Source: a virus. From it: 64,000 nucleotides of DNA. The translations under genes and the position numbers were made by a program. Location of the stretch: IMG/VR virus record IMGVR_UViG_3300025121_000045, positions 1 to 64,000 of that record; one strand, given 5' to 3'. The notes beneath the pieces were generated by a model. That model saw nothing but the letters and a program-made list of their open reading frames with translations, was not told the DNA's origin and made no database searches. Of this stretch, positions 8,569 through 15,397 are shown piece by piece (the stretch's first letter is position 1; each line of letters begins with the position of its first letter).

Positions 8569-8644
8569 TTCTAGTGAACCACTCTAACTATTCATCAAAG
8601 TCATTGTATTATATAGCACCACACATTAAGAAGGTTTAGACATC

Positions 8645-8692
8645 ATGAAACGCATTCGATACTATTATAAGTGGCGTAGAGCCCAATACTGA
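8645..8692 (+). CDS. leader peptide MKRIRYYYKWRRAQY (putative attenuator peptide)
   Basis: AAGAAGG SD at 8628-8634; stop overlaps alternative hairpins; codons match downstream tRNA set. Confidence 0.75.
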   Translation: MKRIRYYYKWRRAQY

Positions 8693-8800
8693 GGATGGTT
8701 TGCGACATCCTCAGTAGCATATAAAATTGCACTGAGGGTGAGATGATGTTGACCTACCAATATCGATCTTTAGAGTTCGATCTCTTACTCCCTCCAATTT
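8687..8800 (+). promoter_or_regulatory. mutually exclusive hairpins (attenuator-like)
   Basis: CATCCTCAGT (8706-8715) pairs with ACTGAGGATG (8688-8697) or ACTGAGGGTG (8731-8740); the latter can also pair with 8783-8793. Confidence 0.7.
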
Positions 8801-8864
8801 TTCTCTTACTTCTTAGCATAAGATAACGTTTATTTGTCATAACAACATTCAATTGAGATTGATT

Positions 8865-9095
8865 ATGTGGCATGATTTAAAACGTGTTGCAGAAGAGAAG
8901 TTTCTGGACACATCGGCTTTTGAAAAGTTTGCGATGGAACTGGAAAATGTATCTCGATACAGCATTTATAATTACCAGGTGAGCTCTTGGCATGTAGATG
9001 CTCTCGTAAAAGCGTACCGGGATCAGAGACCCAATTACGAGGCCGAATATGACCGAGTAGCTCAGGAGCAAATTGCAAAACGACGTGCTTGGTAA
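8865..9095 (+). CDS. hypothetical protein
   Basis: ORF behind promoter motif at 8803-8830. Confidence 0.6.
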   Translation: MWHDLKRVAEEKFLDTSAFEKFAMELENVSRYSIYNYQVSSWHVDALVKAYRDQRPNYEAEYDRVAQEQIAKRRAW

Positions 9096-9115
9096 TGTAA
9101 ACTATTTAATAATAT

Positions 9116-9150
9116 GGGGTAGCGCCAACGCGGGAGAGTTGGACTTGGCT
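9116..9150 (+). pseudogene. 5' half of a disrupted tRNA (Tyr-like D arm)
   Basis: GGGGTAG-CG-CCAAC..GTTGG-A-CTTGG-CT, then breaks off; no intact 3' half. Confidence 0.55.
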
Positions 9151-9216
9151 TTTTGAACTTAATATTACTAATCCGTTTATACTAAATATCTCCAAGTAGG
9201 TTCGATTGGAGATATT

Positions 9217-10008
9217 ATGAAAACATGTGAGTCGTGTTCTAATGAACACCTGGGTAATTATGGTTCAGGAAGATTTTGTAATGTAAAATGTTCAAGGTCC
9301 TTTTCAACTAAAGCAAAAAGACTTGAAATAAATTCAAAAGTTTCCAAAACTTTATCTGGAAATGAAAAGGATGTAGATCAGAAATTAAAATTACGAAATA
9401 GTCATTTAAAAAGACTTAGAGTGACAGAAAAAGTATATGAACATAAAATAAATGCAAATTGCTTTACAAGAGGCGGGAGCATTTATAATGTGGTGTGTAG
9501 AAATTGTTTATGTGATTTTGAAACAACTATAATAGAACAAGAGTTTTGTTCTAGTTCGTGTACCGCGACATTTAATCAAACTGGAAAAAGATTAAGTGAC
9601 AAGCATAAAAATTCTATTTCGGAAGCTCTAAAAGAAAAATATAAGGGTAAGATTTTTTCTGATGAGGAGAGGAAGATTTTATCTTTAGCAGTTGGATCTT
9701 ACACAAAGGGTAAATTCAAAAGCGGTCACATTAATTCTATATGGGATGGTTCCTCTAGAACACGATTAAAAATCTTGAAAAGATTAAATTGTAGTACAGT
9801 TTGTGTTTCGTGTGGTTGGGATAAAGATGAATGCGATGTTCATCATATAAGGGGAAGAAAAATAGAAAACCCACATGCACATTCCAATTTGATTTTACTA
9901 TGCCCAAACTGTCATAGATTAGTACATAAAGGTAAACTGTCTCTATTAGGTCTTAAAACATTAGAAGATTTGTTTCCTTCAAATTGGAAAGATATGTATT
10001 TTGGATAA
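9217..10008 (+). CDS. HNH homing endonuclease with NUMOD3-like region
   Basis: CVSCGW..DVHHI..H.NLILLCPNCH; SD buried in 11-bp hairpin. Confidence 0.88.
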   Translation: MKTCESCSNEHLGNYGSGRFCNVKCSRSFSTKAKRLEINSKVSKTLSGNEKDVDQKLKLRNSHLKRLRVTEKVYEHKINANCFTRGGSIYNVVCRNCLCDFETTIIEQEFCSSSCTATFNQTGKRLSDKHKNSISEALKEKYKGKIFSDEERKILSLAVGSYTKGKFKSGHINSIWDGSSRTRLKILKRLNCSTVCVSCGWDKDECDVHHIRGRKIENPHAHSNLILLCPNCHRLVHKGKLSLLGLKTLEDLFPSNWKDMYFG

Positions 10009-10009
10009 G

Positions 10010-10033
10010 TGGTGGAGGCTTCGGCCTCCACCA
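10010..10033 (+). other. 10-bp hairpin with C(UUCG)G tetraloop
   Basis: TGGTGGAGGC-TTCG-GCCTCCACCA; no U tract. Confidence 0.7.
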
Positions 10034-10042
10034 GGAGTAAGT

Positions 10043-10273
10043 ATGAAAATCAAGGTTGACGACAAAGTTGCTCTAAAACGTGACATTTACAGGACCTCTC
10101 ACATTACGAGAGAGGTCGAGCTTTATGCCTCAAAGGGTGAGACAGGGTCTGTAGAAAATGTATTTCCGAGTTCAGGGTCGGGACATATGTCCAAAGATGT
10201 AAGGTGGAATGCAAAAGTACGAATTGGTAATGTCTTGAAAACTTTTCGTGTTACAAGCTTAGAGGTTGTTTAG
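10043..10273 (+). CDS. hypothetical SH3/KOW-like protein
   Basis: AGGAG SD then ATG 10043. Confidence 0.6.
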   Translation: MKIKVDDKVALKRDIYRTSHITREVELYASKGETGSVENVFPSSGSGHMSKDVRWNAKVRIGNVLKTFRVTSLEVV

Positions 10274-10286
10274 GTTTTAGAAAATT

Positions 10287-10360
10287 GGGTCCATAATTCA
10301 ATGGAAGAATCTCCGGCTTTTAACCGGATTACCTCGGATCAATACCGAGTGGACCCACCA
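10287..10360 (+). tRNA. tRNA-Lys(TTT)
   Basis: Cloverleaf, loop CTTTTAA, CCA; atypical T-loop ATCAATA. Confidence 0.9.
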
Positions 10361-10367
10361 AATTAAT

Positions 10368-13882: not shown

Positions 13883-13902
13883 GTCCATATTCCATCTAAA
13901 TA

Positions 13903-14103
13903 ATGGATCTTTTGTTCCGTGTATATAACATGGAGGACGTTATGGAAGAAAAAGCTAGATTGGTATGGTGTAAAGGTACTTGGCCAGAAGACAATTATGA
14001 GGATTTTAAGGTTTTCCAGGTTCGTCCAGATGAAACTGACGAAGATGCCTTTAAACGGGCAGAGGAAGCGTATAGCGTAGAGAATGAGTTTTATATTAAG
14101 TAA
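13903..14103 (+). CDS. small acidic protein
   Basis: GGAGG SD before internal ATG (likely true start ~13942). Confidence 0.55.
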   Translation: MDLLFRVYNMEDVMEEKARLVWCKGTWPEDNYEDFKVFQVRPDETDEDAFKRAEEAYSVENEFYIK

Positions 14104-14108
14104 TATCT

Positions 14109-14193
14109 GGGGTCGTGGTATATCGGCTGTACACCGGACTTTTAATCCGTGACCGAAAGGTCTAGGTAGGTTCGACTCCTACCGGCCCAACCA
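14109..14193 (+). tRNA. tRNA-Lys(TTT) with long variable arm
   Basis: Loop CTTTTAA, V-arm GACC-GAAA-GGTC, CCA; G1.A72 mismatch. Confidence 0.8.
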
Positions 14194-14202
14194 TGTTAAT
14201 TT

Positions 14203-14278
14203 GGGTCCTTAGCTCAGCAGGTAGAGCATCTGGCTTTTAACCAGAGGGTGCCCGGATCAAGACCGGGAGGACCCACCA
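14203..14278 (+). tRNA. tRNA-Lys(TTT)
   Basis: Loop CTTTTAA, CCA; T-loop ATCAAGA. Confidence 0.9.
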
Positions 14279-14351
14279 AACTTGTCTTATGTTATTTTTG
14301 CACTAATGTTTTTGTATAAATCCTCATATGTAAATTAATTTGAGGATTTAT

Positions 14352-15095
14352 ATGAGAATTAGAACAAGTCCTATATGGGATCTTCCAAAAGAAGAGTTTG
14401 AGTCTTTAGTAGCAAAGAGTGAAACTTTTACAGCAATATTAGCTCATGTTGGATTACGAAATATCGGCCATAATTGGAAAACTCTAAGAACCCGACTTTT
14501 AGAAGATGGAATAGACTTTAGTCATATAGGTACTGGTCGTACTTGGGCAAAAGGTAAATTTTTTAGAAGAGCTTCAAATGAAGAAGTTTTTGTAAAAGGT
14601 CCTGGTTACGGCAAAAGTCATATAAAAGAAAGAATAATAAAAGAAAACCTATTATCATATATATGTGCTAATTGTAAACTAGAGCCAGTTTGGAATGGTG
14701 AAAAATTAGTTTTGCATTTAGACCATATTAACGGTGACGGAACTGATGACAGATTAGAGAATTTAAGATTTTTATGTCCTAACTGTCACAGTCAAACAAA
14801 AACTTATACAGGTAGGAATAAAATACTAGGAAGGCATGTTCCAAAATATTGTATAGATTGTAATAAACAGGTATCTCATAATCAATATGATAGATGTTTT
14901 TTATGTTCTCAAAAATGGAGAGGTTTAACACAGAGAAAATTTGACCCCTCAAAAGAGGAGTTAGAAAATTTAGTAAAGTCTAATTCTATAATAGACATAG
15001 GATTGATGTTTAATGTGTCTGAAGCTGCTGTAAGGAAAAGATGTGAGCTTTTAGGCATACTGTATAAGAAAAAAGATTTAAAAATGCGCCTCTAG
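14352..15095 (+). CDS. HNH homing endonuclease
   Basis: LHLDHINGDGTDDRLENLRFLCPNCHSQT; C-terminal HTH; stop codon inside tRNA-Arg. Confidence 0.9.
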   Translation: MRIRTSPIWDLPKEEFESLVAKSETFTAILAHVGLRNIGHNWKTLRTRLLEDGIDFSHIGTGRTWAKGKFFRRASNEEVFVKGPGYGKSHIKERIIKENLLSYICANCKLEPVWNGEKLVLHLDHINGDGTDDRLENLRFLCPNCHSQTKTYTGRNKILGRHVPKYCIDCNKQVSHNQYDRCFLCSQKWRGLTQRKFDPSKEELENLVKSNSIIDIGLMFNVSEAAVRKRCELLGILYKKKDLKMRL

Positions 15096-15161
15096 CTCAA
15101 CGGATAGAGCAAGGGTTTACGAAGCCCAAGACGGTGAGTTCAATTCTCCCGAGGCGCTCCA
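15086..15161 (+). tRNA. tRNA-Arg(ACG)
   Basis: Loop TTACGAA, acceptor GCGCCTC/GAGGCGC, CCA. Confidence 0.85.
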
Positions 15162-15185
15162 GACGATTATATTAAGACCTCGTCC

Positions 15186-15233
15186 TAACATCAGAACTAT
15201 AAGGTTGGCCTGATGTTAAGTATTTTCAACTTT
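15186..15233 (+). ncRNA. H-type pseudoknot element, copy 3
   Basis: TAACATCAG/CTGATGTTA and AAGGTTG/CAACTTT. Confidence 0.7.
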
Positions 15234-15235
15234 TT

Positions 15236-15310
15236 GGACCATTAGCTCATCGGACAGAGCAACTGCCTTCGAAGCAGAAGAGGGGTGTTCAATTCACCCA
15301 TGGTCCTCCA
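15236..15310 (+). tRNA. tRNA-Arg(TCG)
   Basis: Loop CTTCGAA, acceptor GGACCAT/ATGGTCC, CCA. Confidence 0.88.
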
Positions 15311-15322
15311 ATAATATTCAAT

Positions 15323-15397
15323 AGGGGTCAGCGTAGGTTGTGCCTAAAGGACTCCAAATCCTTTTAGCGATGGGTTCAAATCCCTCGGCCCCTGCCA
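15323..15397 (+). tRNA. tRNA-Trp(CCA)
   Basis: Loop CTCCAAA, acceptor AGGGGTC/GGCCCCT, G73, CCA; atypical D arm. Confidence 0.78.

What the first reader, a model, noticed from the sequence alone, without database searches (positions are those of the whole stretch)
8628..15397. Leader peptide whose codons index the downstream tRNA array: candidate tRNA-depletion-sensing attenuator
Seen: an SD-preceded ORF below the ORF-track cutoff, ATG AAA CGC ATT CGA TAC TAT TAT AAG TGG CGT AGA GCC CAA TAC TGA (8645-8692), lies just upstream of the tRNA region. Codons 2-12 are all decodable by array tRNAs: AAA Lys-TTT, AAG Lys-CTT, CGC/CGT Arg-ACG, CGA Arg-TCG, AGA Arg-TCT, ATT Ile-GAT, TAC/TAT Tyr-GTA, TGG Trp-CCA. 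Eight of the nine anticodon types are sampled (only Val-TAC is missing), and both Lys and four different Arg codons each appear once, i.e. isoacceptor-level matching. The stop overlaps segment 1 (8687-8697) of a switch: segment 2 (8706-8716) pairs with segment 1 or segment 3 (8728-8740), and segment 3 can instead pair with 8783-8793 ahead of a T-rich run. Known: attenuator peptides sense charged tRNA by ribosome stalling; anti-phage anticodon nucleases (PrrC, PARIS, retron effectors) deplete tRNAs. Inference: a multi-codon sensor that switches on replacement tRNAs when any of these host tRNAs is lost. I cannot tell which conformer stops transcription, and extra promoter motifs at 8803 and 10467 may drive part of the array independently. 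I know of no description of such a system.
Basis: partly seen in the sequence, partly recalled or inferred. Interest (0 to 1): 0.95.

Follow-up and report, generated by a model that had tools for sequence, protein, structure and literature searches.

The report
Codon-matched leader switch before phage tRNAs
A 15-codon mini-gene written almost entirely in codons read by this giant phage's own tRNA genes ends inside a three-part RNA switch, so it probably gauges how well those codons are decoded, but which way the switch acts is unresolved.

Summary
The ORF (ATG 8645, TGA 8690-8692, MKRIRYYYKWRRAQY) is there. Codons 2-12 are all cognate to array tRNAs and sample 8 of 9 anticodon types. The match is unlikely by chance: it ranks first of 2488 small ORFs, and random codon sets of equal frequency equal it in 9 of 5000 trials (47 of 5000 without the sub-threshold tRNA-Trp). 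Its stop lies in the first of three copies of a 10-nt word (forward, inverted, forward), an arrangement seen in 0 of 5000 shuffles.

The "terminator" is a non-canonical Y-shaped fold plus T5. Folding with a masked ribosome shows that stalls at codons 2-11 favour that terminator-like fold.

No relatives keep this locus, so conservation is untested. Two other jumbo phages do carry amino-acid-matched short ORFs just before tRNA blocks: LR745208.1 (permutation P=4e-5) and XacN1 (MNKPYYKRYYAKA before Lys-Lys-Tyr). This scan has already reported the same idea on other DNA (AI notes, unchecked). Four literature searches found no published account.

Verdict: probably a real, atypically placed member of an undescribed class. 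The sensing part is plausible; the output direction and any link to anticodon nucleases are not shown.

The parts
8529..8557 (+). Candidate sigma-70-like promoter, TGGACA-17-TATATT, inside the 3' end of the histidine-kinase gene and about 88 nt before the leader ATG.
   Evidence: 10 of 12 matches. The scan as a whole is at chance level (31 sites found, 26.4 expected), so this is only a candidate.
8628..8634 (+). Weak Shine-Dalgarno-like AAGAAGG, 10 nt before the ATG.
   Evidence: The genome's genes use GAGG/GGAG/AGGA cores at 4-10 nt, mode 6.
8645..8692 (+). 15-codon leader ORF, MKRIRYYYKWRRAQY plus stop. Codons 2-12 (8648-8680) and codon 15 are cognate to array tRNAs.
8688..8697 (+). Word 1 (ACTGAGGATG), the 5' arm of hairpin 1:2. 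It overlaps codon 15 and the stop codon.
8706..8715 (+). Word 2, the inverted copy (CATCCTCAGT). It pairs with word 1 (-18.4 kcal/mol) or with word 3 (-19.8 kcal/mol).
8731..8740 (+). Word 3 (ACTGAGGGTG), a 9-of-10 copy of word 1. Its GAGGG is also the 5' strand of the Y-fold's closing stem.
8734..8794 (+). Y-shaped fold: closing stem 8734-8738/8790-8794, long hairpin about 8741-8771, short hairpin about 8772-8785 with a TTCGAT loop; -18.2 kcal/mol. It forms only when 1:2 is intact.
   Evidence: It matches no Rfam family, including tRNA, at E up to 10.
8798..8807 (+). T-rich run TTTTTCTCTT, 3 nt after the Y-fold. An upstream AAAATTG (8723-8729) is complementary to CAATTTT (8795-8801).
   Evidence: Not called as a terminator.
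8750..8827 (+). C-rich, G-poor stretch (C 21, G 7), in the top 1% of + strand windows. It is rut-like in composition only.
8865..9095 (+). 76-aa ORF (phrog_37513). Its only detectable homologue is in XacN1, at 39% identity.
9217..10008 (+). HNH endonuclease gene, probably a mobile insertion, between the leader and the array.
10043..10273 (+). 76-aa ORF of unknown function that ends 13 nt before the first tRNA.
10287..15310 (+). Array of 14 tRNA genes: Lys-TTT x3, Lys-CTT x3, Arg-TCT x2, Arg-ACG, Arg-TCG, Ile-GAT x2, Tyr-GTA and Val-TAC. It is interspersed with three HNH endonuclease genes and an L7/L12-like gene.
15323..15394 (+). Candidate non-canonical tRNA-Trp(CCA).
   Evidence: 23.3 bits, below the 29-bit cut-off, full-length match. 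Not found by ARAGORN.

Best explanation
WHAT IT IS. The mini-ORF is most likely a real, translated 'roster' leader: a short ORF spelled in the codons read by the phage's own tRNA genes. It works a ribosome-driven RNA switch at the head of the + strand unit ORF 8865-9095, HNH, ORF 10043-10273, then the tRNA array.

SHOWN IN SILICO.
- While the ribosome's A-site is on any of codons 2-11, hairpin 1:2 stays closed. Word 3 then closes a Y-shaped fold that is followed by a T-run.
- Once the ribosome has decoded the matched run and sits at codon 12 to the stop, it melts 1:2. Word 2 captures word 3 and the Y-fold cannot form.
- The element therefore reports whether Lys, Arg, Ile, Tyr and Trp codons, covering 8 anticodon types, are decoded promptly.

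INFERRED.
- The ORF is translated.
- The two RNA states have different consequences for transcription or processing of the downstream unit.

DIRECTION IS UNRESOLVED. On sequence alone I slightly favour (about 55:45) that Y plus the T-run is the stop. Read-through would then be licensed by successful decoding. The homeostatic reading, in which a stall gives more tRNA, needs the Y-state to be the permissive one, for instance by hiding the C-rich stretch from Rho or by acting as a processing or antitermination element.
For: CODON MATCH. The ORF ranks 1 of 2488 small ORFs. Only 9 of 5000 random codon sets do as well among the 261 intergenic small ORFs. Given 12 in-set codons, sampling 8 of 9 anticodon types has probability about 0.10.

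SWITCH. The three-word arrangement occurs in 0 of 5000 shuffles. Energies are 1:2 -18.4, 2:3 -19.8 and the Y-fold -18.2 kcal/mol. The flip between codons 11 and 12 appears on two different transcript windows. The stop codon lies inside word 1.

SETTING. The 296-nt spacer is among the longest non-coding stretches of the contig. It carries no known RNA family.

CLASS-LEVEL SUPPORT FROM MY OWN TESTS.
- In LR745208.1 the nearest upstream ATG ORF of each of 10 tRNA blocks matches its own block's amino acids far better than other blocks' (permutation P=4e-5).
- Three of those ORFs rank 1 of 703, and two more rank 7 and 9 of 703.
- For six leaders, one of them hand-picked, 21 of 21 tRNA species are sampled by a cognate codon, against 37 of 105 in mismatched pairs.
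- In XacN1, the only detectable relative, the Lys-CTT/Lys-TTT/Tyr-GTA block is preceded by MNKPYYKRYYAKA. That ORF ranks 1 of 207, and the permutation over 15 blocks gives P=0.004.
- The XacN1 leader region is strongly structured (z=-3.15) and its hairpins swap under ribosome masks.
- XacN1 and the window share long-variable-arm tRNA-Lys genes. Each has a Lys, Lys, Tyr trio: the window's first three tRNAs, and in XacN1 the block behind the leader.
Against: - The leader stop lies 1594 nt and three ORFs before the first tRNA. In LR745208.1 and XacN1 the matched ORFs end 6-93 nt from a tRNA.
- None of the window's nine tRNA sub-blocks has an adjacent matched ORF (permutation P=0.25).
- The SD is weak and its spacer is long.
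- The tRNA-Trp needed for the unbroken run is sub-threshold. Without it the random-set figure is 47 of 5000.
- The terminator is non-canonical and the scan does not call it.
- The anatomy gives the opposite sign to a homeostatic sensor.
- No relative holds the locus, and four metagenome runs carry the identical sequence, so there is no conservation or covariation evidence.
- In XacN1 the matched codons lie inside segment 1, while here they lie upstream of it. The two layouts do not point to one shared mechanism.
- Selection effect: the finding comes from a scan of very many windows in which this idea is often raised. 2047 notes hold the search words, so some matches at P of about 0.002 are expected by chance.
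Confidence: 0.55

Rival explanations
1. Chance ORF beside an unrelated structured element. The three-word hairpin system and the Y-fold with its T-run would be the 3' end, terminator or stabiliser of the upstream two-component (PAS histidine kinase) operon, or another RNA or DNA element. On this view the short ORF that ends in it is not translated and its codon match is a coincidence.
For: The element lies 120-230 nt after the kinase stop codon at 8566-8568, where an operon end is expected. The A-tract, stem and T-tract are terminator-like. The SD is weak. The array is 1.6 kb away. The scan that produced the finding has a large selection effect. Random sets give a run of 11 or more somewhere in the contig 5.9% of the time.
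Against: Among intergenic small ORFs only 9 of 5000 random sets reach the match. The match also sits exactly at an element that itself occurs in 0 of 5000 shuffles. The flip point coincides with the end of the matched run. Comparable matched ORFs occur in two other jumbo phages.
Confidence: 0.2
2. Relic. The leader and switch once stood directly before the first tRNA of the block, as in XacN1 and LR745208.1. Insertions (ORF 8865-9095, the HNH gene, ORF 10043-10273) or decay of a first tRNA into the Y-shaped fold then separated them. The element is conserved by inertia and no longer controls the array.
For: HNH endonuclease genes are scattered through the array and are typically mobile. The Y-fold starts 41 nt after the leader stop, a distance within the 6-93 nt seen in the other phages. 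It has an acceptor-like closing stem and a TTCGAT-loop hairpin.
Against: The Y-fold matches the Rfam tRNA model at no E-value up to 10. Its long hairpin has a 6-nt loop and cannot be an anticodon arm. The ORF and all three words are intact and perfectly paired, which argues for maintenance.
Confidence: 0.15
3. One reading: a trp-style attenuator in which a stall at any matched codon gives antitermination and switches the array on, triggered by host anticodon nucleases.
For: The codon match is at isoacceptor level. Homeostatic logic is what known leader-peptide attenuators use (established knowledge, recalled). Lys, Arg and Tyr tRNAs are known nuclease targets and phage tRNAs are known to counter such defences. 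For those two points I saw only the listings and abstract starts of PMC10264068, PMC11555353 and PMC11464382.
Against: Stalls at codons 2-10 leave 1:2 closed (probability 0.73-1.00) and the Y-fold with its T-run formed. Only codon 12 onward, and codon 11 in part, give the 2:3 form, and a ribosome at the stop codon gives the same form. In the classical geometry most matched codons would therefore increase termination rather than relieve it. No nuclease-related feature was found in any call.
Confidence: 0.2
4. A free-standing 15-residue basic, aromatic peptide with a function of its own, for example RNA binding. Its K/R/Y/W composition would merely coincide with the tRNA set.
For: It has an ATG start with AAA as second codon.
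Against: The coincidence is what the random-set test prices, at 9 of 5000. No similar peptide is encoded elsewhere in the contig or in the metagenome collection under a degenerate pattern. This reading does not explain the stop-overlapping switch.
Confidence: 0.05

Closest known systems
Multivalent leader-peptide transcription attenuators of enterobacterial amino-acid operons: thr (Thr and Ile codons) and ilvGMEDA (Ile, Leu, Val), with trp as the archetype. This is recalled knowledge, not taken from a call.
   Same: A short ORF rich in diagnostic codons. Its end overlaps the first of several mutually exclusive RNA segments, and a T-run follows the last pairing. The matched codons end three codons before the stop, as the Trp codons do in trpL (recalled).
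   Different: The codons match tRNA genes rather than biosynthetic genes, and five amino acids and 8 anticodon types are sampled. Most matched codons lie upstream of segment 1, so stalls preserve 1:2. A ribosome at the stop does not reach segment 2. The terminator is a Y-shaped fold with a 3-nt spacer. The controlled genes begin 170 nt downstream (ORF) and 1.6 kb downstream (tRNAs).
Amino-acid-matched short ORFs before tRNA blocks in jumbo phages. I saw them here in LR745208.1 and XacN1, and earlier AI notes of this scan report them on other genomes.
   Same: An ATG ORF of 9-36 codons on the tRNA strand that is top-ranked for the block's amino acids. Every isoacceptor, or nearly every one, is sampled. 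Stable structure lies at or overlapping the stop, with alternative pairings.
   Different: Those ORFs end 6-93 nt before a tRNA. In LR745208.1 they sit 9-21 nt behind TTGACA-17-TATACT (or TAGACT) promoters in 5 of the 6 cases viewed. The window's ORF lies 1.6 kb upstream, serves a whole mixed array instead of one block, and has no clear promoter.
Leader-ORF-controlled Rho-dependent termination, as in the mgtA leader with mgtL of Salmonella (recalled, not from a call).
   Same: Translation of a short leader ORF chooses between alternative stem-loops. A C-rich, G-poor stretch lies downstream.
   Different: There is no evidence for Rho use here. Much of the C-rich stretch is single-stranded in both states.
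T-box riboswitches.
   Same: They sense the state of tRNA to control translation-related genes.
   Different: No T-box match was found at E up to 1 over 8000-16500 or up to 10 over 8560-9230. The present element would sense through a ribosome, not by binding tRNA directly.
The silent tRNA array (trn operon) of Anabaena PCC 7120, induced by translational stress.
   Same: An accessory tRNA array whose expression responds to impaired translation.
   Different: [quoted passage not shown] In PMC8421152 I read passages, and the words 'leader' and 'attenuat' occur 0 times. For PMC10272220 I read the abstract.

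Membership tests
Ribosome-mediated transcription attenuator (trp/thr/his type) | Short translated leader ORF carrying codons diagnostic of the controlled function | tested here: inconclusive
   The ORF and its codon match are present and statistically unusual. Translation is not shown. The SD is weak.
Ribosome-mediated transcription attenuator (trp/thr/his type) | Control codons placed so that a stalled ribosome masks segment 1 and frees segment 2 | tested here: not met
   This holds only for codon 12, for codon 11 in part, and for codon 15. 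Stalls at codons 2-10 leave 1:2 intact at probability 0.73-1.00.
Ribosome-mediated transcription attenuator (trp/thr/his type) | Mutually exclusive pairings 1:2, 2:3 and 3:4 | tested here: met
   The three-word arrangement occurs in 0 of 5000 shuffles.
Ribosome-mediated transcription attenuator (trp/thr/his type) | 3:4 is a canonical intrinsic terminator, a GC-rich hairpin directly followed by a U-run | tested here: not met
   A 5-bp closing stem around a 51-nt two-hairpin insert, with a 3-nt spacer before T5. The scan does not call it.
Ribosome-mediated transcription attenuator (trp/thr/his type) | A ribosome at the leader stop covers segment 2, so that 3:4 forms under replete conditions | tested here: not met
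   A mask at the stop ends at about 8702 and segment 2 starts at 8706. The 2:3 pairing forms at probability 0.99-1.00.
Jumbo-phage tRNA-roster leader ORFs (working class defined) | Short ATG ORF on the tRNA strand, top-ranked among small ORFs for codons of the downstream tRNAs | tested here: met
   Rank 1 of 2488 and best of the 261 intergenic small ORFs.
Jumbo-phage tRNA-roster leader ORFs (working class defined) | Each tRNA species of the block is sampled by at least one cognate codon | tested here: met
   8 of 9 here, with Val-TAC missing. The figure is 21 of 21 in LR745208.1.
Jumbo-phage tRNA-roster leader ORFs (working class defined) | Ends within about 100 nt of the first tRNA of the block | tested here: not met
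   1594 nt and three ORFs lie between. The window's sub-blocks have no adjacent matched ORFs.
Jumbo-phage tRNA-roster leader ORFs (working class defined) | Stable structure at or overlapping the stop, with alternative pairings | tested here: met
   The same is seen for the other phages.
Jumbo-phage tRNA-roster leader ORFs (working class defined) | Conserved among relatives, with codons tracking the array | not testable with these tools
tRNA or tRNA-like element (for the Y-shaped fold 8734-8794) | Match to the tRNA covariance model | tested here: not met
   No RF00005 match at E up to 10 in 8560-9230.
T-box riboswitch | Match to the T-box covariance model | tested here: not met
   No match.

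The most novel reading that the evidence does not exclude
Jumbo phages gauge the decoding capacity of each tRNA species they encode with 'roster' leader ORFs. In this phage a single 15-codon roster, through a three-word RNA switch acting at long range (for example a Y-fold that hides a Rho entry site or makes the polymerase termination-resistant), would raise expression of a 6.7-kb mosaic operon of 15 tRNAs when any of eight host tRNA species runs short, including after attack by anticodon nucleases.
Probability: 0.2. Interest if true: 0.85.

Novelty: new variant of a known kind. Interest (0 to 1): 0.6.

Why it matters
How phages regulate their tRNA genes is essentially unknown. Current explanations of phage tRNAs, codon compensation and escape from tRNA-cleaving defences, say nothing about control.

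A leader ORF that samples every isoacceptor of a tRNA array would extend the classic ribosome-as-sensor principle from amino-acid supply to tRNA supply. It would give a directly testable handle, through reporter fusions with recoded leaders, on when a phage deploys its tRNAs.

This window adds an unusual case: one leader, a clean three-word switch, and action at a distance. The checks made here on LR745208.1 and XacN1 show that matched ORFs before tRNA blocks recur in public jumbo-phage genomes. That makes a systematic census worthwhile.

Tried and rejected
RELATIVES OF THE LOCUS. None was found by any route.
- Megablast of 8400-10400 against phages gave no match.
- tblastn of ORF 8865-9092 hit only XacN1, at 39% identity and without synteny.
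- The search for related loci found nothing with that ORF, the kinase or the exonuclease-V-like protein in viral contigs, or with the ORF in metagenome contigs.
- The exact hairpin pattern had 0 matches in viral contigs.
- A degenerate back-translation of the leader peptide had 0 matches in metagenome contigs.
- The search for homologous proteins returned only the query's own cluster for ORF 8865-9092 and for ORF 10043-10270.
- tblastn of SerRS and of the kinase returned only distant or host-like hits.
- Earlier scan notes list no look-alike stretch.

SEQUENCING RUNS. No RNA holder is listed. Four DNA runs from 3 samples and 2 studies, of which two runs come from samples that may be the source of this DNA, were laid on 8000-16000. 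The long pieces that cover the leader region show 0 differences, so there is no population variation to analyse.

IDEAS TESTED AND DROPPED.
- tRNA-like identity of the Y-fold: rejected.
- The ORF as a remnant of another gene, or the spacer as a repeat: rejected, with no significant tblastn or blastn self-match.
- ACTGAGGRTG as a genome-wide motif: rejected, 7 matches against 6.5 expected, with only the three local copies exact.
- GGTTTAGA, part of the SD region, as a promoter or processing motif. It is over-represented (11 against 3.2 expected), but most copies lie inside genes encoding Gly-Leu. Dropped.
- My crude scan for hairpins followed by T-runs across the contig was uninformative.
- The idea that leader sequences in LR745208.1 misfold the first tRNA unless a ribosome sits on them. 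Ribosome masks showed a trend. Native leaders were not individually distinguishable from dinucleotide shuffles, with fractions of 0.02-0.33. Inconclusive.
- The Rho idea rests only on C over G composition.
- Atlas look-ups of the two small ORFs gave only unnamed viral clusters.

LITERATURE SEARCHES FOR A PUBLISHED ACCOUNT. Searches listed no paper describing leader ORFs before phage tRNA genes; none of the 15 papers listed (of 562 holding at least two of the three terms) holds 'tRNA array'. One search served for background on phage tRNAs and anticodon nucleases. The XacN1 genome paper has 0 occurrences of 'leader', 'attenuat' or 'terminator' (passages). Supplementary files were not consulted. 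XacN1's Table S3 of tRNAs might bear on the unannotated 106-nt tRNA-like gene.

ROWS DROPPED FROM THE BLOCK TESTS.
- LR745208.1: single tRNAs at 141808 and 142332, plus three hits outside 130-210 kb (5878, 7631, 36285).
- XacN1: the two CUA suppressor tRNAs and the 106-nt tRNA-like gene.
- The Leu leader used was hand-picked from another frame. The rule-based Leu ORF, which scores poorly, was the one used in the permutation test.

Full report
WHAT THE WINDOW IS. The window is the first 64 kb of a 72.8-kb virus contig with 37.8% G+C. All listed holder runs are labelled groundwater metagenome. Its gene content points to a jumbo-phage fragment:
- ribonucleotide reductase, helicases and an exonuclease-V-like protein;
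- a PAS histidine kinase, seryl-tRNA synthetase and an L7/L12-like protein;
- many HNH endonuclease genes.
The only detectable named relative is Xanthomonas phage XacN1, through a 76-aa ORF at 39% identity.

THE OBSERVATION. It lies in a 296-nt spacer (8569-8864) between the kinase gene and a small ORF. That spacer is one of the longest non-coding stretches of the contig.

ARAGORN and Rfam agree on 14 tRNAs between 10287 and 15310: Lys x6, Arg x4, Ile x2, Tyr and Val. Its acceptor stem and anticodon loop look Trp-like, but its D and T arms are irregular.

The ORF is not 'just upstream' of the array. Between its stop and the first tRNA lie 1594 nt containing ORF 8865-9095, an HNH endonuclease gene (9217-10008) and ORF 10043-10273.

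IS THE CODON MATCH MORE THAN CHANCE? The 15 codons read by the array's nine anticodon types make up 24.8% of gene codons and 25.1% of six-frame codons.
- The 11-codon run at 8648 is the only run of 9 or more in six frames of the whole contig.
- Among 2488 small ORFs the ORF is first, with 12 of 14 codons in the set and a binomial probability of 3.4e-6. The runner-up at 1.7e-5 shows some overdispersion.
- I therefore used random codon sets of the same cumulative frequency as the null. A run of 11 or more somewhere in the contig occurs in 5.9% of 3000 sets.
- A score as extreme as the observed one among the 261 small ORFs that start in non-coding DNA occurs in 9 of 5000 sets, and in 47 of 5000 if Trp is left out.
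- Sampling 8 of 9 anticodon types in 12 in-set codons adds a factor of about 0.1.
The match is unlikely to be chance within this genome. The scan's selection effect is large, however: 2047 notes hold the words of this idea.

THE RNA ELEMENT. A 10-nt word occurs three times within 53 nt: forward at 8688-8697, inverted at 8706-8715, and forward at 8731-8740 with one change. It occurs exactly nowhere else in the window. The stop codon lies inside word 1.
- Hairpin 1:2 (-18.4 kcal/mol) and hairpin 2:3 (-19.8 kcal/mol) are mutually exclusive.
- Word 3 also supplies the GAGGG that pairs with CCCTC (8790-8794). This closes a Y-shaped fold of two hairpins (-18.2 kcal/mol).
- After a 3-nt spacer the fold is followed by TTTTTCTCTT. 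An upstream AAAATTG complements CAATTTT.
- A perfect 10-bp hairpin arises in 18 of 5000 dinucleotide shuffles of the spacer. The hairpin plus a third copy arises in 0 of 5000.
- No Rfam family matches the spacer, including tRNA and T-box.

HOW THE SWITCH WOULD RESPOND TO A RIBOSOME. I folded the transcript with 28 nt masked around each A-site position, on two transcript windows.
- With the A-site on codons 2-10, 1:2 stays formed at probability 0.73-1.00. The Y-fold forms at 0.21-0.94 on the short transcript and at 0.82-0.96 on the long one.
- Codon 11 is the transition: 1:2 is 0.47 on the short transcript and 0.95 on the long one.
- At codon 12 and beyond, including the stop, 1:2 is lost, 2:3 forms at 0.96-1.00 and the Y-fold is blocked.
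The flip therefore coincides with the end of the matched run. Every matched codon up to codon 10, and codon 11 on the long transcript, gives the same RNA state when it stalls the ribosome. That is coherent for a multi-codon gauge.

The state produced by stalling is also the untranslated state, and it is the one that carries the only terminator-like feature. In addition, a ribosome at the stop does not reach segment 2. The direction of control therefore cannot be read from the sequence. The stretch 8750-8827 is C-rich and G-poor, in the top 1% of windows. That leaves room for a Rho-type output with the opposite sign, but this rests on composition only.

COMPARATIVE EVIDENCE. No relative retains this locus. 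Conservation of this ORF is therefore untested.

LR745208.1 (485 kb) has an exonuclease-V-like protein 32% identical to the window's, and its tRNA blocks are sorted by isotype.
- Matched leader-block pairs beat permuted pairs at P=4e-5.
- The ORFs before the Thr, Pro/Ala and Tyr/Cys/His blocks each rank 1 of 703. The last of these is MNQHLHHHCY. Arg/Gly ranks 7 and Glu/Asp ranks 9.
- Both Ser blocks, Lys/Val/Arg, Ile/Phe/Gln and the rule-chosen Leu ORF show little or no match.
- For six leaders, the Leu one hand-picked, 21 of 21 tRNA species are sampled by a cognate codon, against 37 of 105 in mismatched pairs.
- These ORFs end 6-50 nt before the tRNA. In five of the six cases they sit 9-21 nt behind TTGACA-17-TATACT (or TAGACT) promoters.

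In XacN1 the same rule over 15 blocks gives P=0.004. This is driven by MNKPYYKRYYAKA, 93 nt before the Lys-CTT/Lys-TTT/Tyr-GTA block, which ranks 1 of 207.
- That region is strongly structured (z=-3.15).
- It contains an 11-nt direct repeat.
- Its hairpins swap under ribosome masks.
- XacN1 and the window share unusual long-variable-arm tRNA-Lys genes. The window's first three tRNAs are Lys, Lys, Tyr, the same trio as the XacN1 block behind that leader.

Matched short ORFs before tRNA blocks are thus a recurring feature, and this raises the prior for the window's ORF. Against it, the window's own nine sub-blocks have no adjacent matched ORFs (P=0.25). The XacN1 layout, with matched codons inside segment 1, also differs from the window's.

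EARLIER NOTES AND LITERATURE. This scan has already raised 'leader-peptide attenuators gating phage tRNA arrays' on at least eight other genomes. Those are AI notes, and I treated them as leads only.

Searches listed no paper describing leader ORFs before phage tRNA genes; none of the 15 papers listed holds 'tRNA array'. The XacN1 genome paper has no occurrence of 'leader', 'attenuat' or 'terminator' (passages). The nearest published control of an accessory tRNA array is the Anabaena trn operon. It is regulated through promoter repeats and the repressor TrcR (passages, abstract). Phage tRNAs as a counter-measure to tRNA-cleaving defences are published, but I saw only listings and abstract starts. 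Nothing in this window ties the element to such nucleases.

VERDICT. Its placement, the terminator and the tRNA-Trp are weaker than stated.

My estimates are:
- about 0.55 for a genuine ribosome-operated leader switch tied to the tRNA array, with its output direction open;
- about 0.2 for a chance ORF beside an unrelated structured element;
- about 0.15 for a relic;
- about 0.05 for an independent small peptide.
I put it at about 0.2.

It is a new variant of a known kind: leader-peptide sensing applied to tRNA genes. It is not the first instance seen by this scan, and I found no description of it in print.

Noticed in passing
L004-L007 (LR745208.1, record positions 144233-200518): The tRNA blocks are sorted by isotype. 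Each of several blocks is preceded, 6-50 nt away, by a short ATG ORF rich in that block's amino acids, for example MNQHLHHHCY before Tyr/Cys/His. These ORFs lie 9-21 nt behind TTGACA-17-TATACT-like promoters and have no SD, which suggests nearly leaderless mRNAs.
   Followed up: partly
L002 3429-3470 (XacN1, record positions 30428-30469): An unannotated ORF, MNKPYYKRYYAKA, lies 93 nt before the Lys-CTT/Lys-TTT/Tyr-GTA tRNA block. It is built from a tandem 12-nt repeat. An 11-nt copy of its core sits just 5' of the first tRNA.
   Followed up: partly
L002 3283-3388 (XacN1, record positions 30282-30387): A 106-nt match to the tRNA model (45.6 bits) with a long internal insertion. It is not annotated in the record and ARAGORN does not call it.
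   Followed up: no
window 12386-12429 and 13356-13399: Two homologous elements end 2-3 nt before tRNA-Lys(CTT) genes. Their 7-bp stems differ by a compensatory change (AGAGTTG/CAACTCT against AGGGTTG/CAACCCT). Other readers of this scan noted them as pseudoknots.
   Followed up: no
window 8743-8826: A second small ORF of 27 aa with a hydrophobic tail (LLLPPIFLLLLSI). Its GAGG Shine-Dalgarno lies in word 3 of the switch, so its translation start would be hidden or exposed by the same pairings. It may be a chance ORF.
   Followed up: no
window 5433-8568: A phage-borne two-component-like operon. The 760-aa kinase has an ethylene-receptor-like N-terminal domain, three PAS domains, HisKA and HATPase_c.
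   Followed up: no
window 13481-13882 and 16221-17561: A protein with a ribosomal L7/L12 C-terminal domain lies inside the tRNA array. A full-length seryl-tRNA synthetase lies just after the array.
   Followed up: no
window 10368-10448 and 14109-14193; L002 3564-3652: tRNA-Lys genes with long, class-II-like variable arms occur in both the window's phage and XacN1.
   Followed up: partly
L004 (LR745208.1, record positions 142332-142406): ARAGORN reports a tRNA with a four-base anticodon (TTTA) and no assigned amino acid.
   Followed up: no
window 10846-10986: A 46-aa ORF with an Arg-rich core (EKRRRRLYADTPRR) ends 106 nt before the two tRNA-Arg(TCT) genes. Its Arg codons are mostly CGN, not AGR, and its in-set fraction (18 of 45) is not significant.
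   Followed up: partly
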